64,000 nt of DNA from a virus. The stretch's first letter is position 1; the number at the start of each line of letters is the position of its first letter. The notes under the pieces were generated by a model that was given only the letters and a program-made list of their open reading frames with translations, ran no database searches and was not told the DNA's origin. This document shows, in pieces, positions 3,488 to 50,090 of the stretch. Both the position numbers and the translations under genes were made by a program. The stretch lies in UHGV virus genome UHGV-0218015. One strand, 5' to 3'.

Positions 3488-3531
3488 CCCCAATTTATTA
3501 TAGCCGCCCACTATAGTGAGGGAATGAGGAA

Positions 3532-3831
3532 ATGATTAAATATGTTGTTATTAATGTAAACTACGAACGTAGTCCACGTTTTCGCTTCGAATTACCTGAA
3601 ACCGAAGCAACCATGGAGTTTAATCGCTATTTATTAGAACATTCAAACACCAAAATCAATCACGGTAGATACTGGCTTATCTACTACAATGCCCGTAATG
3701 AATTACTGAAAGCAGTTGAGAAATCAGGTCAGTCGGAGCTGTTAGCGAAACTGATGGCGTACGATAACGATCCCTTAGCAATAGGAGTTATGTTAGACCT
3801 TGTTATTAAGAAAGATGAAATAGCGTGGTGA
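3532..3831 (+). CDS. hypothetical protein (99 aa)
   Basis: ATG with GAGGAA RBS; ORF ends before bidirectional terminator. Confidence 0.5.
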   Translation: MIKYVVINVNYERSPRFRFELPETEATMEFNRYLLEHSNTKINHGRYWLIYYNARNELLKAVEKSGQSELLAKLMAYDNDPLAIGVMLDLVIKKDEIAW

Positions 3832-3890
3832 AAAAAGAAAAGCTACTCCGACCCCAGAAGGGTCGGAGTAAGCTCGAATTATTTTTTTTT
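3831..3890. terminator. bidirectional terminator between convergent genes
   Basis: Stem CTCCGACCC / loop CAGAA / GGGTCGGAG flanked by an A-run (3830-3845) and a T-run (3882-3890). Confidence 0.7.
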
Positions 3891-3895
3891 GCTAT

Positions 3896-6613
3896 TTAGA
3901 GAGTTTCGTCGGTGTTGTCGTCTGTACCGGTATCCGTCTCGTCCGTGTCTTCAGCAGAAACGTCTTCTTCCGATGTCGTATCGGTTTCCGTCGTTTCTTC
4001 ATCAGACATGTCCAAGTCTTCATCACCACCCAGATCGTCACCACCTAAGTCCTCATCACCACCTAAGCCGCCGTCGTCTTCAGACCCGCCACCAAAGTCG
4101 CTACCCCCGCCGAAGTTATTGGCGTCCTCAGGATTCAAATCAGCCGCTTTTGCTAAGGTTTCAACTTTACCTGTTGCACGCTTAGCTAACTGAATCAACG
4201 TTTTAGATGCTGATGCGATTTCATCAGAAATCATCTTGACGTTTTCGCCACGTTTATCTTCGTCGTAGATCAAATCAAACAGATCGGTTTCTATGCCCTG
4301 ATTGCGTAGCCAGTTACGCGTATAGAACGATTTAATCATCGTCTTGAGATCATCAGGCTGCATTTCGATACCTTCATTCTGAAGCATATTTGAAATGTCG
4401 TCGGTAACAACCAGATCCGCCAGTTTCTCAATGAACTCATAGCGTTTGTCGAACAGATCCGCTTGTGAAGAAGAAGCTGATGTGTCTGGTGGTGGTAAGG
4501 TGACTTTCATGCCATTGATGAACTTCGCCAGATACTCTGACGTTTGCTTGGTCAAGTCTTCACTTGTTACGTTAGGATTTTGATTGCGAATATATTCAAC
4601 GATAATACGAATCAATTCTGCTTGTAACTTAGGAGAGGCTTGCAAACTGTTTGTCACGTAGCGTGTTAACGGCGTAGACAGGATTTCTTGTTTCTTCACG
4701 ATTTGCTGAGTCACCAGCAGTGACTTGGAATAAATCTGCGAAGCAAATTCCAGGTTTTCTGGTGTCAAAACAAGATCCGGGTCTACACACGCGATGTGGC
4801 AAGTACGACGGAGTAAGTTTTCATCGATTTGCTGATCGGGCACTTTATACTCAGGCGTTGTGTCCGAAACTGACACTTTATGACTGGCGTAGTATTCGTT
4901 ACCCGTCACGTTAAATGCAATCCCGGCATTAGCCCCCATTGACCAGGCATCGTTGATATCGCCCCACATCGGTAAACGACGATTATAGGAGTTGAGGATA
5001 TCCGATTTAACTTGGTCAACTGTTTTCTGACCGTTCATATCGTCCGGCGATAACTCAATGTCATATTGCATGTGACGCGCTGAGTTCAACACTGAAGAGT
5101 TCATTGTTGCGAACAACAGCGCCATCCTGACCGTGGAGATGATAAAGGAACGTTCGGTAATAGACACCCCGATACCATCTTCGTTAAAGTCGGTTGCAAA
5201 GTAGCATAAGTTATTAACCGGGATATAGACAACCTGTGTGTGACGTTTTGCGAGGTGACGTGCCAGTAGAATACGACCGAAGGTTTCGGTAATTTTCATG
5301 CTGATTTCGGCACCACCCAACGCTTGACTTAAAGCGCGGGTAAATTCGTTCTCAGCAATCTCGCTGCAACGTGCACTTAAACGGTTGGCGATTTCAGGCG
5401 TTATACGAGAGGTATTACCCAAGCCTAAATTAGAGCGGTTGATAATACTGTCTGTCATGCCGTCGTTATTAAGGTAGTTCATAAAGTTCGCGTCCCCGTA
5501 AAGTGAGGAACGTGAGTTGATGAAGTTACCCATATCGTCAATAATGGTCAGAAACCCAATAGGGTTACGAACGTCGTCACCAATAACCAACGGGGCGGTA
5601 GACTCAGCAGGGAGTAAACATTCGAAATAGTCGATCTGGTTGTTTTCATCCATCGAAATAATCGGGATGTTACCATAAAGCTGAGTTTTTGGTGTACTTT
5701 TGTACGCTTCGTTCAGATCACCTAAGTTGATGAAGCCTTTTTCAGCTGCATCACGCTGACGATCGTTAAACTGTTGATTAACTTCATACGGCGCAGCACC
5801 TGTCGGTGTGGCAGGCTTTTCATATGCGGCTTGCTCTAATTGGCCGTAGAGACCAGTACGAGCGTTCTCATGCGCGATTCGACGATAAGCATGGGGCAGT
5901 AACGTGATACGTGGGTTGTCGGTAATCGAGATGTCCATTTCGAACTTATCTGAGAACATCTTATCATGGTTACTGAAATTGATTTTCAGTGATTGTGGTC
6001 CTTTAACAGGTCCACGGACACGACTCAGAATAGATTCCACACCTACGCGTTGCCCGTCATCTTGCGAGTTGATTGGGCCGAGAATACCGAGTTGTTCTTC
6101 GAAATACGCGGCTTGAGAACGACGCATGGATTCGGTAGCGATTTTGGTGTCTAAACCGAACAGCTGGTCAAATCCATTGTCCGAGATTATCATCACTGGA
6201 CTTGCGCCTTTTGTTTTTAACGCGTCGTAAATCCACTGATATAATTTCTTAGGTAATTGACGTACGTTATCATGATAATCACGCGTTGGTGTCAGTAAGT
6301 CATTACGTAAGTCAATTGGAATGTCTGCGATGTTGTCGTAAATCAACGTGGTGTTGATTAAGTCTTTTGTCGACAGCAAGCTCGAAGTTGCAATGGTAAC
6401 AATCGTTTCGAGTTCAGGTAACGCATCAAAGATACGTTCCGCATTTTTGATAGTACGAATACGCGAACTTACAATTCCTGCAAGTTCCTGACGTGTTGGC
6501 GTAGAACCACCCTCGCTACGCGTACCGCGTTGTTGCTGGGGTGCTGGGCCCGTAGTTTTACGAAGAATTGCAGCTACGGCGGGGTCGCCCGTTAATTTAC
6601 TAATATCGTCCAT
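3896..6613 (-). CDS. large hypothetical protein (905 aa) with highly acidic Gly/Asp/Glu/Thr-rich C-terminal tail; possible virion or portal-like protein
   Basis: Long - strand ORF with GGAGA RBS 5 nt upstream of ATG; C-terminal GGDEDLGGDDLGGDEDL...TDETDTGTDD low-complexity tail. Confidence 0.6.
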   Translation of the reverse strand: MDDISKLTGDPAVAAILRKTTGPAPQQQRGTRSEGGSTPTRQELAGIVSSRIRTIKNAERIFDALPELETIVTIATSSLLSTKDLINTTLIYDNIADIPIDLRNDLLTPTRDYHDNVRQLPKKLYQWIYDALKTKGASPVMIISDNGFDQLFGLDTKIATESMRRSQAAYFEEQLGILGPINSQDDGQRVGVESILSRVRGPVKGPQSLKINFSNHDKMFSDKFEMDISITDNPRITLLPHAYRRIAHENARTGLYGQLEQAAYEKPATPTGAAPYEVNQQFNDRQRDAAEKGFINLGDLNEAYKSTPKTQLYGNIPIISMDENNQIDYFECLLPAESTAPLVIGDDVRNPIGFLTIIDDMGNFINSRSSLYGDANFMNYLNNDGMTDSIINRSNLGLGNTSRITPEIANRLSARCSEIAENEFTRALSQALGGAEISMKITETFGRILLARHLAKRHTQVVYIPVNNLCYFATDFNEDGIGVSITERSFIISTVRMALLFATMNSSVLNSARHMQYDIELSPDDMNGQKTVDQVKSDILNSYNRRLPMWGDINDAWSMGANAGIAFNVTGNEYYASHKVSVSDTTPEYKVPDQQIDENLLRRTCHIACVDPDLVLTPENLEFASQIYSKSLLVTQQIVKKQEILSTPLTRYVTNSLQASPKLQAELIRIIVEYIRNQNPNVTSEDLTKQTSEYLAKFINGMKVTLPPPDTSASSSQADLFDKRYEFIEKLADLVVTDDISNMLQNEGIEMQPDDLKTMIKSFYTRNWLRNQGIETDLFDLIYDEDKRGENVKMISDEIASASKTLIQLAKRATGKVETLAKAADLNPEDANNFGGGSDFGGGSEDDGGLGGDEDLGGDDLGGDEDLDMSDEETTETDTTSEEDVSAEDTDETDTGTDDNTDETL

Positions 6614-6624
6614 TGGGGTCTCCG

Positions 6625-8808
6625 ATGCAGAGATTTAACATATTTCGTGATCAGAACATCACGTTGGCGAAATCGCTGATTATTAAATCAGAATCAATCG
6701 CACAACAGATGAATCTGGCAATAACCGAGAACGGCGGTTTCGTTTCCGATAACCGTAGTACGTGGCGATACTACCTGCATTTAGCAGGACAACGTCACGA
6801 AATGGATAAACCCATTTACATAACGTCGCTCGACACGCAAGAGCAGATAGAATTAACGACAGCCAACCTGTCCCGTCATAAAAAGACCTCTAACGTTTTT
6901 CGTTCGAATGCTGAGTACATCGAGGCGTTGATCGCAAGTTATCCCGAATACGCGATTTATATTCGCGGCGTCTTTACGCCAATCGATTTAAAATACGCTT
7001 TACGTGTAGACGATTGTTCTATTTTGTATTACGACAGCTCGTTAGTAGAATCGCAAGAGACGTCATTGATTAGCCGACTGGAAGCGAGAATTCGTGCGGC
7101 ACATGTCCGTTACATGGCTGAGGGTTGGAAGGTCCACAACGATGCGTTTGTGTTAGCTTTCTATTGCATGTTGTTTCCTCAGTTACCAGGCATAATTGGT
7201 TATATACGTTCTTCTTTACAGCATACGACAGAAACGCACTCTTTCTTCGTTACCGAATTTTTAGCTTCGCATCAGGAACTGCATGAGTTTATGCCGTATC
7301 TGACTCAGAAACAAAAATTCATTCTTTATCGGAATATCCGATACTGGGAACGCAATTCAGGGAAAGAGGAGATCTTCGATTGGCAAATCGATGCGCTATT
7401 GACAGGTTGGGGAATGCCTGCGGTTGGGTATAATGTTGCACAGCAGATTCACGAACCGAAAGATAACGATGATAATTCCTTAACACCGTTACCTATCGGC
7501 TATCAGCAATCTTTAAACTACACAGAGAAAGACTCTGGACGCGATTTGGATATTGTTGCCACTACGGACATAATCCAAAAAGAGGTGGGGTTAGCGTATA
7601 ATAACCCGGCGTACGAACCGGAGTATCAAGAAGACTTAGACACCCGACTGAGTCTGACACAATACCCCAACTTAACGACGAAACTCGTAGAAGTCACCGC
7701 TGTTGACCCAGAAGCTATTGAGCGTTTTGAATACACACATAACCTCTTTAATGAATGGGTGCATTTGGTCGCGAAGGGAAAATACAGCATCTACCACGAG
7801 ATTCTTAACCCGACCAACGGCGACACGTTAAAAATGAGTTCGAAAGAGCTGTTGGCGTTGTTTTTGTACGCGGCGTATAAAGGCTACTCTGATGTCGCTC
7901 TTGAAGAAATCCCGGTATTTAACGTTTTTGATGTTTTGATTAAACGATGGGTTTCGTTCGATGAAATGGAACAACATCTTATCCCGAGTTGGGAACACCG
8001 TTTCGACGCACTGATTAACTACTACACCGATACCCACACCGAGGTAGTCGGAACCATTCTCAGTGCCGATGAACTTTACGATACGGTTAATGAAATTATT
8101 TTGCAGAAGCGCCGTCGTTGGCGTTACAGCCAAAACCGCCGTAAAATTCCCGACCGTGCAGCGGGCCTAATGTTGTTCGATTACCATTATCGCGATTACC
8201 GATGTGATTTAAAGTTAAAGTATCGTAACTACGATGAGTTCTTTAAGACCTTCGGTTTAGACTACACACTGGTCTCCGCAGAGACGTGGCAAGATATCGC
8301 AACTGATGCATTGAACACCGCAACAAACCTCGAAACGCGTGCAACTATTTCGCAATCTGAAATACAGCGTGCGATGGTTCGATTGATGACCAAGCTTTCG
8401 TCGTATACCGTACATTTTGCTGCGCGGATGGGGTCAGATTCTTACGACGTTATGGACCCGCTTTGTCCAATCTTAGGGGATATCCCTATGAGTGGGGAGG
8501 GTACAGTTACCATCATTGAACCTCTCTTAGGCGTACAGTCAGTTACGCGACATCAACACATGACGACGGACAAAGTGCTTCCCGCAGCGCCGGTGATTAA
8601 AGAGCTGTCCATGCCGCAACACATCAAACTACGGATGAACATTTACATGGGTATCCGTGTGAGAGTGAATCAGCAAGTCGTGGTGAATATTAATGAACCG
8701 ACCACCGGGGTTGTTAAGGTCAAGTCTTCACTTGACGACTGGGCGTTAAGCGAACAGGTGAAAATTAACGATCTCGAAGGGTTTACGTTAGACCAGCTAC
8801 CTAAGTGA
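6625..8808 (+). CDS. hypothetical protein (about 727 aa; ORF track start 6613 is TTG, ATG at 6625 preferred)
   Basis: Long ORF; ATG 6625 preceded by GGGG at 6615-6618; start lies within 12 nt of the divergent 905-aa gene start. Confidence 0.55.
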   Translation: MQRFNIFRDQNITLAKSLIIKSESIAQQMNLAITENGGFVSDNRSTWRYYLHLAGQRHEMDKPIYITSLDTQEQIELTTANLSRHKKTSNVFRSNAEYIEALIASYPEYAIYIRGVFTPIDLKYALRVDDCSILYYDSSLVESQETSLISRLEARIRAAHVRYMAEGWKVHNDAFVLAFYCMLFPQLPGIIGYIRSSLQHTTETHSFFVTEFLASHQELHEFMPYLTQKQKFILYRNIRYWERNSGKEEIFDWQIDALLTGWGMPAVGYNVAQQIHEPKDNDDNSLTPLPIGYQQSLNYTEKDSGRDLDIVATTDIIQKEVGLAYNNPAYEPEYQEDLDTRLSLTQYPNLTTKLVEVTAVDPEAIERFEYTHNLFNEWVHLVAKGKYSIYHEILNPTNGDTLKMSSKELLALFLYAAYKGYSDVALEEIPVFNVFDVLIKRWVSFDEMEQHLIPSWEHRFDALINYYTDTHTEVVGTILSADELYDTVNEIILQKRRRWRYSQNRRKIPDRAAGLMLFDYHYRDYRCDLKLKYRNYDEFFKTFGLDYTLVSAETWQDIATDALNTATNLETRATISQSEIQRAMVRLMTKLSSYTVHFAARMGSDSYDVMDPLCPILGDIPMSGEGTVTIIEPLLGVQSVTRHQHMTTDKVLPAAPVIKELSMPQHIKLRMNIYMGIRVRVNQQVVVNINEPTTGVVKVKSSLDDWALSEQVKINDLEGFTLDQLPK

Positions 8809-8815
8809 GAGAACC

Positions 8816-9343
8816 ATGGCATATCGTGTCGATTTAACGAAAGCACCTAAACAAATTTTAGTAGACCGGATTAACTACGTATTTAGTCTATCCTATACTG
8901 CTGATAACATCGAGTTTAACGCAAACGGCGTTCAACCACTAACTTTAGCAGAACGCCAACGTTACGGACTAGAATCAAAGGTTGCTGCCGTCTTCCGTAA
9001 CGGCGTTGTCGGTAACCAGGAATTCATTTTAACTCGCGTTGATTTGGCAACGTTCTTGGCCGATGAACCGGTGAGTGTACCGAAAGGCGCAGTAACGTCC
9101 AGCGAAGAGTTGGCTGATTATATCGTCGCACAAACAGGGCTCGACCTGCGTGCCGACGACATTATGATTGAGCCGATTTCAGAGGAACTGGATTCTTATG
9201 ATGTTCGTCTCGTCCCGAATCATTTGTCTTTTAAAGGAACGATTCCGGTCGTATTTACTGATTCCACTCCACGCAAATTGGCGTCTCTTGTGACGAAATT
9301 GGCGTTGGATGGGTTCCGCCCAGGAGAATTAATCAATGTCTAA
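8816..9343 (+). CDS. hypothetical protein (175 aa)
   Basis: ORF 8 nt after previous stop, same-strand array. Confidence 0.5.
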   Translation: MAYRVDLTKAPKQILVDRINYVFSLSYTADNIEFNANGVQPLTLAERQRYGLESKVAAVFRNGVVGNQEFILTRVDLATFLADEPVSVPKGAVTSSEELADYIVAQTGLDLRADDIMIEPISEELDSYDVRLVPNHLSFKGTIPVVFTDSTPRKLASLVTKLALDGFRPGELINV

Positions 9344-10223
9344 TGTCAAAGTTTACGACGGTAAACTCTCGACGGTAACGCTTAATGCGATGCGTTTAGC
9401 TACCGCATTAATTACCGGTGCTGACGTGCAATACCCACAAAAATCCACACTGAATGAGTTCTATAAACTCATGCAAACGCCAGTGCCGGATGGTAAAGCG
9501 CGTCCTCATTTGCAGTACATGGCAATTGGCAACCGTGGTCATATGGTCGACACCTCTGATGTGGTGGCTGACGTTGTACCTGTAGGTAAAGAACCTATTG
9601 CTTCCGGGATGTTTTCCCGCGTTCCGTTTGTCCTGCGTACAAAAGACAATGATCTGTCTGACGAACAGCGTAAGAAATACGCCTTCCGTACTCTGGAAAC
9701 CATCAATAAACGTCAGTATTGGGCGTATTACTTAAAACGTATCGACATGCGTGCTGTAAAAACGTCAGACTACGATATCAAGCGTGAGAACGGCGTTGAG
9801 ACGGTCGAAGACTTTGTGTACACAGACACGGAATTAAACCCCGTGCCGAAAGTATTGCCGGATTACGATTACGATGACGATGGTACTGTCGCAATTCCAG
9901 ACGGACGTTATGTCGAATCTGGTGCTGACCTGGTTATTCCGTGGACAGACTTTGATGTTCAGGAATACATGCACGTAACGAGCATTATGCGTGGTAGTCC
10001 GCGTAGTTCAATTATCTCTGAACTGGCACTCTGTTCTGGGTTAGACCAGGTAGCGTCCGGGGATTCTGCAGCTGGGTCTAAATTCAGCTATAACGAGGCG
10101 ATTGGGGTCCAGGCGCTGTACTATATTTCGATGTTTACCAACCTGGCACAGACGAATGACAAACTGTCTTTGACCATTCGCATCGGACAACCTGCGCCGT
10201 TCTTCCTGGGGACAGCTAACTGA
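9336..10223 (+). CDS. hypothetical protein (295 aa)
   Basis: ORF overlaps upstream stop by 8 nt (translational coupling). Confidence 0.5.
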   Translation: MSNVKVYDGKLSTVTLNAMRLATALITGADVQYPQKSTLNEFYKLMQTPVPDGKARPHLQYMAIGNRGHMVDTSDVVADVVPVGKEPIASGMFSRVPFVLRTKDNDLSDEQRKKYAFRTLETINKRQYWAYYLKRIDMRAVKTSDYDIKRENGVETVEDFVYTDTELNPVPKVLPDYDYDDDGTVAIPDGRYVESGADLVIPWTDFDVQEYMHVTSIMRGSPRSSIISELALCSGLDQVASGDSAAGSKFSYNEAIGVQALYYISMFTNLAQTNDKLSLTIRIGQPAPFFLGTAN

Positions 10224-10867
10224 TGTTGATACCCGAGCCGAGACTTCCAGATAAGATGGTAAGAATCGCGGCAATAGACCCCGGTACGAGCCATCTTGGT
10301 ATGGCAGTATTGGATTGGGAATACGGCAGCGATCAAGCCGAAGTGGTTTGGGCTGATACCATGCATGTATTAGACCCAACGCATCCAAATGCGTTCGCAG
10401 AGTGTGTCGGTAAACGTGACGATCGTTTAGTTAAGCTCGAAGCTTGTTACCGTGAATTTCTTCGGATTGCCTGCCCAACTTTCGTTGCAACTGAGACACC
10501 GTTCATGCGGAGAGCAAAACTCTCCGCTTATGAATCTGGCGTCGAACTACAATTAATGTTGCGACGTACTTTGTGGGATATTTACCCGGAGAAAATTTTA
10601 CACGGCTTCAATCCTATCATTGTAAAATCATTCGTTGGGGTGGAGGCGAAGGGGACGGATAAAACCGATATGTTTCGGGCCGTGACCAAGCTCTACCATG
10701 ATCATGCTTTGTTTGATATTACAACGTTAGATGAGCACAGCATTGATGCTGTGGCGGTGGGAAATATTTTCGTCAGGGTAAATCTGTTAAACTTAAACAG
10801 CTTGCTACCGCCTAAACAAAAGTCGACTAAGACCTCCAGGCGGAGAAGGCGTCGGAGAAAACGTTAA
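10223..10867 (+). CDS. putative RuvC-like Holliday junction resolvase (RNase H fold) with poly-Arg C-terminus
   Basis: RIAAIDPGTSHLGMAV matches the RuvC N-terminal catalytic Asp motif (IDPG); internal ATE and C-terminal DEHSIDAVAVG motifs; tail SRRRRRRRKR. Confidence 0.5.
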   Translation: MLIPEPRLPDKMVRIAAIDPGTSHLGMAVLDWEYGSDQAEVVWADTMHVLDPTHPNAFAECVGKRDDRLVKLEACYREFLRIACPTFVATETPFMRRAKLSAYESGVELQLMLRRTLWDIYPEKILHGFNPIIVKSFVGVEAKGTDKTDMFRAVTKLYHDHALFDITTLDEHSIDAVAVGNIFVRVNLLNLNSLLPPKQKSTKTSRRRRRRRKR

Positions 10868-11445
10868 TGGAACCAAGCACACAAGCACTACCCACTGAAA
10901 TACTTGACTTGCTGATTCAAGCTGGAAACAAAAAGTTAAGTAAAGAACAATCTGAACAGTTAACGAAACTCTTGAAAGCGGCGTATGGGGATGAAGTCGA
11001 TGTTGACGTTACCCGTTCGGGAACAAAGATTCTTTCCGACTTACGACCGACGTTAATTGATAATTTAGGCAAACTATCAGAACAATTCCATCAGCAGGCA
11101 ACTGATGCTGTGGAATCTCTCGGGGATGAGGTTAGTAAAGAAACCATGCTAACCTTATGGCCGAAATTAGCCGCTTCCCAGAAGTTCATTATTGCCATTC
11201 TGACGTTGGCGACGGTTATTGTAACGGGGTTCCTGGGTTACGACACACATCAGCATTTTCCAGAAGACAGTCTAGATGTTCTGATTGTGACGTTGGTACC
11301 GTTCTTTGCATTGGTTGTTTTTGCGACTTGGCCGATTAAAACGTTGGCTTATAAGTCTCTTGAGATAGCCACAAAAGTTGTTGAGAAGAAGCTTGAGAAA
11401 TCAGGCCAGCTTAAGTCGAAGACAGAAAGCCCAACAACGAAATAA
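10867..11445 (+). CDS. putative membrane protein (192 aa)
   Basis: Two hydrophobic segments (FIIAILTLATVIVTGFLGY, LIVTLVPFFALVVFATW). Confidence 0.5.
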   Translation: MEPSTQALPTEILDLLIQAGNKKLSKEQSEQLTKLLKAAYGDEVDVDVTRSGTKILSDLRPTLIDNLGKLSEQFHQQATDAVESLGDEVSKETMLTLWPKLAASQKFIIAILTLATVIVTGFLGYDTHQHFPEDSLDVLIVTLVPFFALVVFATWPIKTLAYKSLEIATKVVEKKLEKSGQLKSKTESPTTK

Positions 11446-11450
11446 TATTA

Positions 11451-11489
11451 ACCTCTACCTTCGGGTAGAGGTTACTTCTTTTTATTTTT
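11451..11489 (+). terminator. rho-independent terminator
   Basis: Stem ACCTCTACC / TTCG / GGTAGAGGT followed by TACTTCTTTTTATTTTT. Confidence 0.75.
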
Positions 11490-11526
11490 ACAATTTTTAA
11501 ACATAGTGTGAGACTTAAAAGAAGGA

Positions 11527-18078: not shown

Positions 18079-18083
18079 GTAAA

Positions 18084-18126
18084 TTATTACAACTGTTACC
18101 CTCATTGTGAGAAGTTTCACTTAACG
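18084..18126 (+). promoter_or_regulatory. degenerate copy of the conserved promoter-like motif plus hairpin
   Basis: ATTATTACAACTGTTACCCTCATTGTGAGAAGTTTCACTTAACG shares TTAC...GTGAGA...CACTTAACG with the 42262 copy. Confidence 0.3.
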
Positions 18127-18816: not shown

Positions 18817-18860
18817 CTCAGATATATATTACTTAGGTGAGAGTTACAATTAACTCTTTA
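18815..18860 (+). promoter_or_regulatory. conserved phage promoter-like motif with downstream hairpin (copy 1)
   Basis: TTTTCTCAGATATATATTACTTAGGTGAGAG followed by hairpin GAGAGTTA-CAAT-TAACTCTT; near-identical motif at 37886 and 42258. Confidence 0.55.
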
Positions 18861-23378: not shown

Positions 23379-23416
23379 CCCTCTCTCCGTTTGGAGAGAG
23401 GGAGTATTTATTTTTA
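23379..23416 (+). terminator. rho-independent terminator
   Basis: Stem CCCTCTCTCC / GTTT / GGAGAGAGGG followed by AGTATTTATTTTT. Confidence 0.8.
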
Positions 23417-23471
23417 CGCTTTCGTGTCTAATTATGCACACGTAAACAAAATTAATTGAGGAACAGCTTAA

Positions 23472-34598: not shown

Positions 34599-35105
34599 AT
34601 GGGGGGGGTAACCGGTTCGTGGGTCGGTTCTTCGGCCAAGAACGAAACGGGCGAACAATGGATGAGCGCTGCTGGTAGTAAATTAGGATTGGGTAGACCT
34701 TTTATGATGAGTCAAATGGTGGGACGATCTATGGGCTGTAAAATTGCAACCGCTGCATATAGCGATTCTTTAGGTAAGAAATGGGGCGCAGTAGGACCAA
34801 GCTGGCCGTTAAACCAGAAAAATCAGGGAACCATTCAAAACGCGGGTAACTGCGGGGTGGGAACTTTAGTAGGTATTGAGTTACAGTTAACGACGATAGT
34901 TGCCAACGCAAAGCCTACTTTAGCGGTTTACTTACAAGGAGGCAGAGCCTCTAACATTACCGTAAATTTAGGTGGTAACACCTGCGCGCTGGCCTATCAG
35001 CAGGTTATTAACGGACAGCATTATTACTGGACTAATAACATCAGCGCTGCGTTCCAAAACGTGATGAAATCGACAGGCGCACTGCGTGATTTGAGAATTA
35101 GCTAA
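34599..35105 (+). CDS. tail-fibre-module protein (168 aa), paralog of 33800..34345; start codon fused to a G8 tract
   Basis: MGGVTGSWVGSSAKNETGEQWMSAAGSKL...MSQMVGRS; ATG followed by GGGGGGG (34601-34608). Confidence 0.5.
   Translation: MGGVTGSWVGSSAKNETGEQWMSAAGSKLGLGRPFMMSQMVGRSMGCKIATAAYSDSLGKKWGAVGPSWPLNQKNQGTIQNAGNCGVGTLVGIELQLTTIVANAKPTLAVYLQGGRASNITVNLGGNTCALAYQQVINGQHYYWTNNISAAFQNVMKSTGALRDLRIS
34601..34608. repeat. G8 homopolymer inside the start of gene 34599
   Basis: ATGGGGGGGGTAACC read directly. Confidence 0.9.
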
Positions 35106-35139: not shown

Positions 35140-35149
35140 GGGGGGGGGG
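35140..35149. repeat. G10 homopolymer in the intergenic region upstream of gene 35204
   Basis: AATCGTGGGGGGGGGGTGAATG read directly. Confidence 0.9.
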
Positions 35150-37889: not shown

Positions 37890-37936
37890 CTCAGATATAT
37901 ATTACCTAGGAGAGAGTGAAATTTACGTTCACTCCA
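37886..37936 (+). promoter_or_regulatory. conserved phage promoter-like motif with downstream hairpin (copy 2)
   Basis: TTTTCTCAGATATATATTACCTAGGAGAGAG followed by hairpin GAGTGAA-ATTTACG-TTCACTC (stem differs from copy 1 but pairing is preserved). Confidence 0.55.
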
Positions 37937-42257: not shown

Positions 42258-42310
42258 ATATTTTCAGATATATATTACCTAGGTGAGAGTTCAGTTACTC
42301 TCACTTAACG
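42258..42310 (+). promoter_or_regulatory. conserved phage promoter-like motif with downstream hairpin (copy 3)
   Basis: ATTTTCAGATATATATTACCTAGGTGAGAG followed by hairpin GTGAGAG-TTCAGTTA-CTCTCAC, then CTTAACG. Confidence 0.55.
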
Positions 42311-42333
42311 AAACCATTTTAGGAGAATATACC

Positions 42334-42828
42334 ATGAACTTCACTAGACTTGATTACACTAACGAATTAGTCGACAAAGAAAAATACAAATTCACGATTG
42401 ACTTGGGTTACGGGCTGTGGGACGTAGAAAAAGATATTCTACACAAAGAATTCCGTGAGCAATTCGGTGCATTATTCTGCGCAGGATTCCGTAGAAATTC
42501 TATTGATATCGGTTATGGTGCAACACCGTATAGCGACGAAGAAATGTTTAAGCTGATAACACAGATTATCGGAACTCGTGTGGCTAAACGTTTTAATTAT
42601 TCTAACGAACTTGTTTCGAAAGAACATTACAAGTTCACTGTTAGACTACCTGTTCCTCTCTTTAAAGAAGATAAGAATAGACTCTATAAAGCCCTACAAA
42701 CCGAATTCGGTAAAACGCTCAAAGTAGGGTTCCGCAGTCGTAGTATCGATATCGGAATTAGCGTAGACGTGTGCAGTGACGATGACCTTTACGAATTAGT
42801 TTCGGAAGTTATCGGAAAACACCTCTAA
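42334..42828 (+). CDS. hypothetical protein (about 164 aa) built from an internal tandem duplication of an 80-aa module
   Basis: AGGAGAATATACC-ATG; halves NFTRLDYTNELVDKEKYKFTIDLG...GFRRNSIDIGYG and RFNYSNELVSKEHYKFTVRLP...GFRSRSIDIGIS align; the track start 42283 lies inside the promoter motif. Confidence 0.55.
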   Translation: MNFTRLDYTNELVDKEKYKFTIDLGYGLWDVEKDILHKEFREQFGALFCAGFRRNSIDIGYGATPYSDEEMFKLITQIIGTRVAKRFNYSNELVSKEHYKFTVRLPVPLFKEDKNRLYKALQTEFGKTLKVGFRSRSIDIGISVDVCSDDDLYELVSEVIGKHL

Positions 42829-50052: not shown

Positions 50053-50090
50053 GGGGGGGGGTGGTAACCTCCCCCGATATTTCTTTAACT
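50053..50090 (+). terminator. terminator-like hairpin containing a G9 tract
   Basis: GGGGGGGGGTGGTAACCTCCCCC hairpin followed by GATATTTCTTTAACTTTCATTTT. Confidence 0.5.

What the first reader, a model, noticed from the sequence alone, without database searches (positions are those of the whole stretch)
6590..6640. Divergent genes with start codons 11 nt apart and overlapping ribosome-binding sites
The 905-aa - strand gene starts at 6613 (ATG, GGAGA RBS = reverse complement of + strand 6619..6623) and the 727-aa + strand gene most likely starts at ATG 6625 (RBS GGGG 6615..6618). The two translation-initiation regions occupy the same 25 bp on opposite strands, so each gene's promoter and 5' UTR must lie inside the other's coding sequence, giving obligatory antisense overlap with potential for mutual regulation.
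Basis: seen in the sequence. Interest (0 to 1): 0.4.

Follow-up and report, generated by a model that had tools for sequence, protein, structure and literature searches.

The report
Back-to-back portal and baseplate genes
Two essential virion genes of a giant SPN3US-like phage (head portal and tail baseplate wedge) start 11 bases apart on opposite strands, a real arrangement conserved across the family that puts each gene's transcription signals at least partly inside its neighbour, but it is a compact version of something already present in annotated relatives.

Summary
The minus-strand ATG is at 6613 and the plus-strand ATG at 6625. The spacer TGGGGTCTCCG holds two abutting Shine-Dalgarno sequences of ordinary strength.

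The window is an SPN3US/phiEaH2-like jumbo phage. The minus gene is the portal (phiKZ gp129, SPN3US gp81). The plus gene is the baseplate wedge protein (phiKZ gp128, SPN3US gp82).

The head-to-head pairing occurs in all 88 related loci examined. Spacers run 11-68 nt (median 34), and SPN3US and phiEaH2 carry the identical 11-nt spacer. Both starts are backed by N-terminal homology, and the portal start also by SPN3US mass spectrometry.

Published phiKZ TSS mapping places the portal's late promoter (TATG) 70 nt inside gp128. No TSS is known for gp128.

In this clade one antisense TATG is position-conserved in each gene: minus strand 6880-6877 and plus strand 5823-5826. Both sit on unusually fixed non-preferred codons. 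A TTAC-box/ATTG element (6593-6615) is a rival site for the wedge gene.

Mutual regulation is untested. I rate this a new member of a known kind, of modest interest.

The parts
3896..6613 (-). Portal protein gene (905 aa), homolog of phiKZ gp129 and SPN3US gp81
   Evidence: PDB 9xpe_M PHIKZ129 E=1.8e-41. phrog_3004, head and packaging, E=1e-303, covering residues 2-903. Annotated 'portal protein' in Proteus phage 7. AXE protease motifs align with SPN3US ATE-161 and AQE-254.
6625..8808 (+). Baseplate wedge protein gene (727 aa), homolog of phiKZ gp128 and SPN3US gp82
   Evidence: PDB 9xqs_C PHIKZ128 E=2.6e-82, query 4-636 aligned to chain 9-631. phrog_3222 E=2e-281 covering residues 1-725. phiKZ gp128 is the wedge subunit in the cryo-EM atlas PMC13250141. 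SPN3US gp82 is a tail protein by mass spectrometry.
6614..6624 (.). 11-nt non-coding spacer TGGGGTCTCCG between the two start codons
   Evidence: Identical in SPN3US, phiEaH2, Proteus phage 7 and IMG/VR relatives. The core GGGGTCTCC is kept in the 12-15 nt variants.
6615..6619 (+). Shine-Dalgarno sequence of the wedge gene (GGGGU)
   Evidence: Duplex with the 16S 3' end is -6.4 kcal/mol, rank 36 of 67 genes.
6619..6623 (-). Shine-Dalgarno sequence of the portal gene (GGAGA on the minus strand)
   Evidence: Duplex is -6.6 kcal/mol, rank 32 of 67.
6877..6880 (-). Candidate late promoter/TSS of the portal gene. TATG on the minus strand, G(+1) = 6877, leader 264 nt, inside wedge codons 85-86 (CAT AAA).
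   Evidence: It is the only antisense TATG in the wedge gene conserved in 12/12 clade genomes and is present in 22 loci. His85 is CAT in all genomes although CAC is preferred. It is 1 of only 2 T-ending fixed codons among 239 invariant two-fold columns. T-rich upstream sequence resembles phiKZ late promoters. Inferred, not mapped.
6639..6642 (-). Second, lineage-specific minus-strand TATG (G(+1) = 6639, 26-nt portal leader)
   Evidence: Present in this phage, its close IMG/VR relatives and the phiEaH2 lineage. Absent from SPN3US and more distant relatives.
5823..5826 (+). Candidate plus-strand late promoter/TSS inside portal codons 263-264 (palindrome CATATG 5821-5826), 799 nt upstream of the wedge ATG
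   Evidence: It is the only antisense TATG in the portal gene conserved in 12/12 genomes and occurs in 18 loci, all of this clade. GCA/TCA and TAT are fixed at synonymous sites. 10-codon windows starting at portal codons 256-262 score 0.70-0.73, among the 25 highest of 2443 windows. No plus-strand terminator-like site lies between it and 6625. Inferred, not mapped.
6593..6615 (+). Alternative wedge-gene promoter candidate: TAATTTAC box (6593-6600), 11 nt, then ATTG (6612-6615, overlapping the portal start codon)
   Evidence: It has the same build as putative middle promoters of this clade: TTAC, then N12-13, then T(A)nTG (window 11485-11508, 18083-18107, 23411-23436). It lies in portal codons 1-10, whose synonymous identity is 0.75 against 0.49 gene-wide, rank 6 of 2443 windows. 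The spacing is 2 nt shorter than in the other examples. It is not conserved in L018, L020 or L022.
6584..6613 (-). Portal codons 1-10 under synonymous constraint
   Evidence: The first windows of five control genes score 0.39-0.62.
3843..3871 (.). 13-bp GC-rich hairpin flanked by A/T runs: the terminator of the portal transcript, probably bidirectional
   Evidence: Positionally equivalent to the mapped bidirectional terminators T059/T060 between phiKZ gp129 and gp130.

Best explanation
This is the conserved head-to-head junction between the portal gene and the baseplate-wedge gene of an SPN3US/phiEaH2-like, phiKZ-related jumbo phage, compressed to about the smallest workable size.

Shown:
- Both ATGs are the true starts.
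- The 11-nt spacer is non-coding. It carries two ordinary Shine-Dalgarno sequences arranged so that each one is the SD-to-start spacer of the other.

Inferred:
- These phages transcribe middle and late genes with their own non-virion RNA polymerase. Its late promoters are little more than a TATG at the start site and need no upstream intergenic DNA. A promoter can therefore sit inside a neighbouring gene.
- The portal mRNA most likely starts inside the wedge gene. The best candidate is the conserved minus-strand TATG with G(+1) at 6877. A lineage-specific one has G(+1) at 6639.
- The portal mRNA then runs antisense over the wedge gene's 5' end and ends at the hairpin 3843-3871.
- The wedge-operon mRNA starts on the plus strand. 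It begins either at the conserved TATG at 5826 inside the portal gene, or at a TTAC-box/ATTG element at 6593-6615.
- If this is right, the two primary transcripts overlap head to head. Any regulatory consequence of that overlap is unproven.
For: Starts:
- Annotated identically in RefSeq SPN3US and phiEaH2.
- PHROG profiles and PDB chains align from residues 1-10.
- The SPN3US gp81 N-terminal Met was observed and gp82 was detected in tails.
- There is no alternative in-frame start.

Conservation:
- 88/88 loci have the divergent pair.
- 66 distinct junctions have spacers of 11-68 nt, median 34, after correcting three mis-picks.
- A distant clade (L078) independently reached 12 nt.

Promoter-in-neighbour:
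- phiKZ P070 is a late promoter ending ...AAATTTTATGA with its TSS at 130258. PHIKZ129 starts at 130364 and PHIKZ128 occupies 128154-130328 on the opposite strand.
- phiKZ nvRNAP needs TATG but not specific upstream sequence.

This clade:
- Exactly one antisense TATG per gene is conserved in 12/12 genomes.
- Both coincide with the only two T-ending fixed codons among 239 invariant two-fold columns.
- Synonymous constraint peaks at portal codons 1-10 and about 256-271.

Read-through looks unlikely:
- A strong hairpin lies at 3843-3871.
- The phiKZ gp130 transcript stops at T059, with read-through only to 132946.
Against: - No transcript data exist for this phage or any SPN3US-like phage in the searched literature.
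- TATG is not enriched in non-coding DNA of the window: 2.4 per kb against 2.8 per kb in coding sequence. The motif alone therefore proves nothing.
- Conserved CATA also occurs at invariant His codons in other clades. One example is wedge nt 612 in phiKZ, where no TSS was reported.
- Leaders of 264 and 799 nt are longer than the 44-106 nt computed for three neighbouring phiKZ genes.
- phiKZ cappable-seq detected no TSS at all for gp128.
- Synonymous constraint in portal codons 1-10 could instead serve the portal's own translation initiation, since those codons are AT-rich.
- No predicted RNA structure is better than shuffles.
Confidence: 0.6

Rival explanations
1. Short-leader model. The wedge gene's TSS lies at the edge of or inside the 11-nt spacer (about 6615-6617). 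It is driven by a middle-type promoter whose TTAC box sits in portal codons 5-7. The wedge mRNA then has an 8-10 nt leader that begins with its SD. It overlaps the portal transcript by only about 10 nt plus whatever the portal leader covers.
For: - TAATTTAC at 6593-6600, then 11 nt, then ATTG at 6612-6615 has the same architecture as conserved putative middle promoters of this clade. It also resembles phiKZ middle promoters such as P082, which carries AAAATTAC and ends ...AATTG.
- Synonymous identity of portal codons 1-10 is 0.75, rank 6 of 2443 windows.
- Some virion genes of 201phi2-1 use middle promoters.
- Gene 14303 in this window has TATG followed immediately by GGAGG, 11 nt before its ATG.
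Against: - The spacing from C to G(+1) is 15 nt, against a constant 17 in ten orthologous examples.
- The TTAC and ATTG elements are lost in L018/L019, L020/L021 and L022, although those phages keep the same junction.
- An SD at the extreme 5' end of an mRNA is a poor ribosome-binding context (general knowledge).
- The pattern is low in information and could arise by chance.
Confidence: 0.3
2. Read-through model. The wedge gene has no promoter of its own. It is expressed from transcripts that start upstream of 3843 in the plus-strand gene block and run antisense through the whole portal gene.
For: - All genes flanking the portal are on the plus strand, so the portal is a single inverted gene.
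- No canonical TATG lies within 400 nt upstream of the wedge ATG.
Against: - A 13-bp GC-rich hairpin with flanking T-runs at 3843-3871 separates the convergent genes.
- In phiKZ the equivalent site holds mapped bidirectional terminators. The gp130 transcript reads through only about 120 nt.
- A 2.7-kb antisense read-through would collide head-on with portal transcription.
Confidence: 0.07
3. Annotation artefact. One of the two genes really starts further downstream, so the initiation regions are not 11 nt apart.
For: Nothing specific. This is only the generic uncertainty of start-codon calls. The portal N-terminus is later removed as a propeptide of about 250 aa, so it is absent from most mature virion protein.
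Against: - There is no in-frame alternative start within 12 codons of either ATG.
- The N-terminal residues MDDISKLTGDP and MQRFNIFRDQ are conserved.
- Profile and structure alignments begin at residues 1-10.
- The SPN3US gp81 N-terminus was observed with Met retained and P1' = E, which matches the annotated ATG.
Confidence: 0.03

Closest known systems
phiKZ PHIKZ128/PHIKZ129 locus with late promoter P070 (Putzeys et al., ONT-cappable-seq; bioRxiv 10.1101/2023.10.13.562163 supplement)
   Same: - Orthologous gene pair (wedge and portal) in the same divergent orientation.
- The portal is a monocistronic unit ending at a bidirectional terminator.
- The portal promoter is embedded in the wedge gene's coding sequence, so the portal leader is antisense to the wedge 5' end.
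   Different: - The phiKZ spacer is 35 nt with uncrossed SDs. Here it is 11 nt with interleaved SDs.
- The phiKZ TSS is 70 nt into gp128. The conserved TATG here is 253 nt in and is not at the homologous codon.
- No TSS data exist for this clade.
SPN3US gp81/gp82 and phiEaH2 gp005/gp006 (annotated RefSeq genomes)
   Same: Identical 11-nt spacer TGGGGTCTCCG, the same starts and about 71-82% protein identity. In SPN3US both proteins are verified in virions by mass spectrometry.
   Different: This is a different species, with about 73-76% nucleotide identity over the aligned part. In the papers searched and read here, the junction itself was not discussed.
Head-to-head overlapping divergent transcription units ('excludon'-type loci of Listeria and other bacteria; from my own knowledge, Sesto et al. 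2013)
   Same: Divergent genes in which the long 5' leader of one is antisense to the other gene's 5' region.
   Different: - In an excludon the antisense leader demonstrably represses the opposite gene, and the two genes have opposing functions.
- Here both are virion assembly genes needed together.
- No reciprocal effect has been tested.
- Transcription is by a phage multisubunit RNAP with initiator-type promoters.
phiKZ P072/P073 face-to-face TSS pair between gp130 and gp131
   Same: Divergent late-region genes in the same genome family whose mapped TSSs cross each other. The plus TSS is at 134420 and the minus TSS at 134428, giving a 9-nt 5' overlap.
   Different: That pair lies in a 97-nt intergenic spacer. 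Here the spacer itself is only 11 nt.

Membership tests
Jumbo-phage portal protein (phiKZ gp129 / SPN3US gp81 family) | Sequence homology to a structurally solved portal over most of its length | tested here: met
   9xpe_M PHIKZ129 E=1.8e-41; 11ed_J 'Portal Protein gp36' E=1.2e-25. phrog_3004 E=1e-303.
Jumbo-phage portal protein (phiKZ gp129 / SPN3US gp81 family) | Long N-terminal propeptide with AXE prohead-protease sites | tested here: met
   ATE aligns with SPN3US ATE-161 and AHE aligns with AQE-254. The SPN3US sites come from PMC10052503. Cleavage itself was not tested.
Jumbo-phage portal protein (phiKZ gp129 / SPN3US gp81 family) | Dodecameric ring at one capsid vertex | not testable with these tools
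   Known only for phiKZ gp129.
phiKZ gp128-type baseplate wedge protein | Homology to gp128 including the N-terminal helix that forms the wedge three-helix bundle | tested here: met
   9xqs_C E=2.6e-82, query 4-636 aligned to chain 9-631. phrog_3222 covers residues 1-725. Role taken from PMC13250141.
phiKZ gp128-type baseplate wedge protein | Located in the tail, not the head | not testable with these tools
   Shown for the SPN3US ortholog gp82: 461 PSMs in whole virions against 6 in tailless heads.
phiKZ-type late (nvRNAP) promoter | TATG with the G as transcription start | tested here: inconclusive
   TATG motifs at 6880-6877 (-), 6642-6639 (-) and 5823-5826 (+) are present. Two of them are conserved at synonymous sites. 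No TSS data exist, and the 4-mer is not enriched in non-coding DNA.
Head-to-head overlapping (excludon-like) transcription units | At least one TSS lies beyond the start codon of the divergent partner | tested here: inconclusive
   Required by geometry for promoter DNA. Shown for the phiKZ ortholog. Only inferred here.
Head-to-head overlapping (excludon-like) transcription units | Expression of one unit reduces expression of the other | not testable with these tools
   No data. The folding of both initiation regions is unremarkable.
Classical bidirectional intergenic promoter region | Both promoters and both 5' UTRs fit in the intergenic DNA | tested here: not met
   The 11 nt are fully occupied by two SDs and their spacing.

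The most novel reading that the evidence does not exclude
The two conserved antisense TATGs are both real late promoters: plus strand at 5826 and minus strand at 6877. The portal and wedge-operon primary transcripts would then overlap head to head over about 1 kb (5826-6877). This conserved overlap would act as an excludon-like or RNase III-dependent device that couples or limits expression of the two low-copy assembly initiators, the portal (12 per virion) and the baseplate wedge (6 per virion). That would explain why the head-to-head pairing is kept in every phiKZ-related locus examined.
Probability: 0.12. Interest if true: 0.55.

Novelty: new member of a known kind. Interest (0 to 1): 0.25.

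Why it matters
The junction shows how far a phage with its own initiator-type RNA polymerase can compress divergent genes. Two full translation-initiation regions fit in 11 nt, and the promoters move into coding sequence.

In practice it warns annotators and phage engineers. 'Silent' recoding, deletions or insertions in the first roughly 90 codons of the wedge gene, or the first roughly 270 codons of the portal gene, may destroy the neighbour's promoter or leader. That matters for SPN3US amber-mutant genetics, Tn-seq polarity calls and synthetic jumbo-phage design.

It also gives two cheap, testable promoter predictions for a clade that has no transcript map.

Tried and rejected
- **Sigma-70 promoter scan.** It found 15 sites against 12.8 expected. 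It is also irrelevant, because phiKZ, the best-studied member of this phage family, transcribes independently of host RNAP.
- **TATG enrichment in non-coding DNA.** There was none, so the motif cannot locate promoters on its own.
- **GTGAG motif as a promoter element.** It mostly behaves as an SD-like sequence or as the 5' hairpin arm of early transcripts.
- **RNA structure at both initiation regions.** z-scores were 0.2-1.0, so nothing stood out.
- **A 5' hairpin just downstream of the 6877 TATG (GACAG...CTGTC).** It is not kept in SPN3US, L018 or L020, so it was dropped without a covariation test.
- **An overlapping plus-strand ORF inside the putative 799-nt leader (5904..6116).** Stop-free stretches differ in frame, position and length among 12 genomes, so there is no evidence for a gene.
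- **Supplementary tables of the published phiKZ and 201phi2-1 cappable-seq papers.** They are not held as text. The bioRxiv version supplied the phiKZ tables.
- **Literature search for an SPN3US-like transcriptome.** Nothing was found.
- **Pfam.** No family matched either protein.
Full report
**1. The observation**

The sequence reads ...atcgtcCAT TGGGGTCTCCG ATGcagaga.... CAT at 6611-6613 is the first codon of a 905-aa minus-strand ORF (3896..6613). ATG at 6625 opens a 727-aa plus-strand ORF ending at 8808. The 11 nt between them contain GGGG(T) at 6615-6619 and the complement of GGAGA at 6619-6623.

Pairing energies with the 16S rRNA 3' end are -6.4 and -6.6 kcal/mol. That equals the median of 67 genes in the window. 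The two SDs abut rather than overlap, and each fills the 5-6 nt gap that the other gene needs between its SD and its start codon. SD plus spacing comes to about 10-11 nt per gene. So 11 nt is close to the smallest spacer in which two divergent genes can each keep a canonical SD. The mechanical TTG 'start' at 6613 has no SD and is not conserved.

**2. What the genes are**

The window is a phiKZ-related jumbo phage. It is closest to Erwinia phage phiEaH2 and Salmonella phage SPN3US, with about 73-76% nucleotide identity across the junction.

- The minus-strand protein matches the solved phiKZ portal gp129 (9xpe_M, E=1.8e-41) and two other solved jumbo-phage portal-family chains. It also matches phrog_3004, 'head and packaging'.
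- It keeps AXE motifs aligned with the two SPN3US prohead-protease sites ATE-161 and AQE-254.
- The plus-strand protein matches phiKZ gp128 (9xqs_C, E=2.6e-82) and phrog_3222.
- In the phiKZ cryo-EM atlas, gp128 plus two gp87 form each baseplate wedge, and gp129 is the dodecameric portal (PMC13250141).
- Both are scored essential in phiKZ Tn-seq.

**3. Are the starts right?**

- RefSeq annotators placed the same two ATGs 11 nt apart in SPN3US and phiEaH2.
- The spacer TGGGGTCTCCG is identical in those genomes, in Proteus phage 7 and in four IMG/VR contigs.
- Relatives have 12, 14 or 15 nt, so the spacer is not coding in any frame.
- Neither gene has another in-frame start within 12 codons.
- Profile and structure alignments begin at residues 1-10.
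[quoted passage not shown] That matches Met-Glu encoded at the annotated ATG. gp82 is abundant in whole virions and nearly absent from tailless heads (PMC10052503 supplement).

**4. Conservation beyond the clade**

I fetched 80 IMG/VR loci with a gp128-family alignment and added reference phages. All 88 loci had the portal gene on the opposite strand immediately upstream of the gp128 homolog.

After start-codon assignment, 66 distinct junctions had spacers of 11-68 nt with a median of 34. Three automatic mis-picks were corrected by hand. The phiKZ-like phage PA7 and 201phi2-1 have 35 nt, Goslar 27 and OBP 28.

- In the longer spacers the two SDs are uncrossed (CAT-N5-9-CTCC...GGAG-N5-9-ATG).
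- In the SPN3US clade (11-15 nt), and independently in the distant locus L078 (12 nt), they are crossed.

The finding is therefore the extreme of a family-wide, ancient arrangement. The portal is a single inverted gene inside a block of plus-strand genes. It converges on a 13-bp GC-rich hairpin with flanking T/A runs at 3843-3871.

**5. Where transcription starts: experimental analogue**

phiKZ transcribes without host RNAP. Its non-virion RNAP recognises late promoters that consist essentially of TATG with the G as +1. Upstream sequence is dispensable (PMC7598289, PMC4666361).

The cappable-seq tables for phiKZ list the following:

- Late promoter P070, ending ...CAAATTTTATGA, has its TSS at 130258 on the plus strand.
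- It drives a 2841-nt monocistronic unit (TU100) that contains only PHIKZ129.
- That unit ends at T060, which is paired with T059 on the other strand.

With PHIKZ129 at 130364-133054 and PHIKZ128 at 128154-130328 on the minus strand, the portal TSS lies 106 nt upstream of its ATG and 70 nt inside the wedge gene.

No transcription unit or TSS is listed for PHIKZ128 or PHIKZ127. No wedge-sense TSS is listed between 119075 and 134428. The wedge promoter is therefore unknown even in phiKZ. The gp130 transcript reads through its terminator by only about 120 nt, which argues against read-through across the portal gene.

**6. Where transcription starts: sequence evidence in this clade**

TATG by itself is uninformative here: 2.4 per kb in non-coding sequence against 2.8 per kb in coding sequence. 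I therefore used conservation in codon alignments of 12 genomes with 51-93% protein identity.

An unbiased scan for antisense TATGs conserved in at least 9 of 12 genomes returned exactly one site per gene.

- **Wedge gene, nt 253 (CATA, His85-Lys86).** This is the minus-strand TATG 6880-6877.
  - His85 is CAT in all genomes, although CAC is the commoner His codon in 10 of the 13 genomes compared (CAT as low as 18%).
- **Portal gene, nt 788 (GCA TAT, palindrome CATATG).** This is the plus-strand TATG 5823-5826.
  - Ala/Ser263 is always xCA and Tyr264 is always TAT.
  - It lies in one of the four strongest clusters of synonymous constraint among 2443 ten-codon windows.

Among 239 invariant two-fold-degenerate codon columns, only two are fixed for a T-ending codon. 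They are exactly these two positions.

Both TATGs are preceded by T-rich sequence (cTTTTTATG and cTTTTCATATG), as in many phiKZ late promoters. A second minus-strand TATG at 6642-6639 would give a 26-nt leader. It is confined to this phage's and phiEaH2's lineages.

Cautions:
- Conserved CATA also occurs at invariant His codons in other clades where no TSS was reported.
- The implied leaders of 264 and 799 nt are long.

**7. A competing site for the wedge gene**

Portal codons 1-10 show synonymous-codon identity of 0.75 against 0.49 gene-wide. That ranks 6 of 2443 windows, and the first windows of five control genes score 0.39-0.62. The wedge gene's first codons show no excess (0.51 against 0.46).

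On the plus strand this stretch reads TAATTTAC-N11-ATTG, and the ATTG overlaps the portal start codon. The same build appears elsewhere:

- TTAC, 12-13 nt, then T(A)nTG is conserved in ten orthologous intergenic regions after gene 10867..11445.
- It recurs at 18083-18107 and 23411-23436.
- It resembles phiKZ middle promoters.

If it is used, the wedge mRNA would start at about 6615 with an 8-10 nt leader.

Against it, the spacing is 2 nt short, and the box is lost in three sub-lineages that keep the junction. AT-rich early codons may simply help portal translation. I give this model about 0.3.

**8. What was not found**

- No RNA structure at either initiation region is better than shuffles.
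- There is no conserved antisense ORF in the putative leader.
- There is no conserved 5' hairpin after the 6877 TATG.
- There is no evidence for or against mutual regulation.

**9. Verdict**

It is backed by experiment only for the portal side, and only in phiKZ. The functional part (mutual antisense regulation) is untested.

The arrangement is already present in annotated genomes, and the principle is known. Compact phage genomes, initiator-type promoters and head-to-head overlapping units have all been described. So this is a new member of a known kind, of modest interest.

Two things are new here: the family-wide survey, and two specific, falsifiable promoter predictions marked by fixed non-preferred codons.

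Noticed in passing
window 18824-18845, 37897-37918, 42270-42291: Three copies of ATATATTAC + CTAGG(T/A)GAGAG, each just downstream of a hairpin and T-run. The core matches phiKZ early promoters (TATATTAC-N4-RTG). The GTG 'start' of ORF 42283..42828 lies inside this motif, so that start is probably mis-called.
   Followed up: partly
window 11485-11508 (also 18083-18107 and 23411-23436): TTAC box, then 12-15 nt, then T(A)nTG. At the 11485 site, the ten orthologous intergenic regions in ten genomes always have the final G exactly 17 nt after the C of TTAC. This looks like the clade's middle-promoter architecture.
   Followed up: partly
window 3495-3503: TTATTATAG lies about 30 nt upstream of gene 3532..3831. 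It is conserved as ATTATTATAG in 8 genomes although the surrounding intergenic sequence diverges. It may be a promoter of another class.
   Followed up: no
window 5821-5826: The palindrome CATATG in portal codons 263-265 carries TATG on both strands. The sense-strand TATG is kept in 10/12 genomes and the antisense one in 12/12. phiKZ has a mapped internal sense late promoter (P071) in its portal gene, at a different codon.
   Followed up: partly
window ~5000-5040 and ~5460-5500 (portal codons ~524-536 and ~371-384); ~9660-9715 (gene 9336..10223, codons ~109-126): Further 10-codon windows have synonymous-codon identity of 0.70-0.79, as strong as at the junction. The cause is unknown. Embedded signals or strongly preferred codons in conserved segments are both possible.
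   Followed up: no
window 34601-34608, 35140-35147, 50053-50060: Runs of 8 or more G. One lies at the start of ORF 34599 (ATGGGGGGG) and two lie in intergenic hairpin-like contexts.
   Followed up: no
L078:3982-3995 (IMG/VR contig 3300031600_000013): A distant relative (about 33% identity) has independently compressed the same junction to 12 nt (GGGTGACTCCTT), again with crossed SDs.
   Followed up: no
window 3843-3871: A 13-bp perfect hairpin has an A-run upstream and a T-run downstream, between convergent genes. It is positionally equivalent to the phiKZ bidirectional terminators T059/T060.
   Followed up: partly
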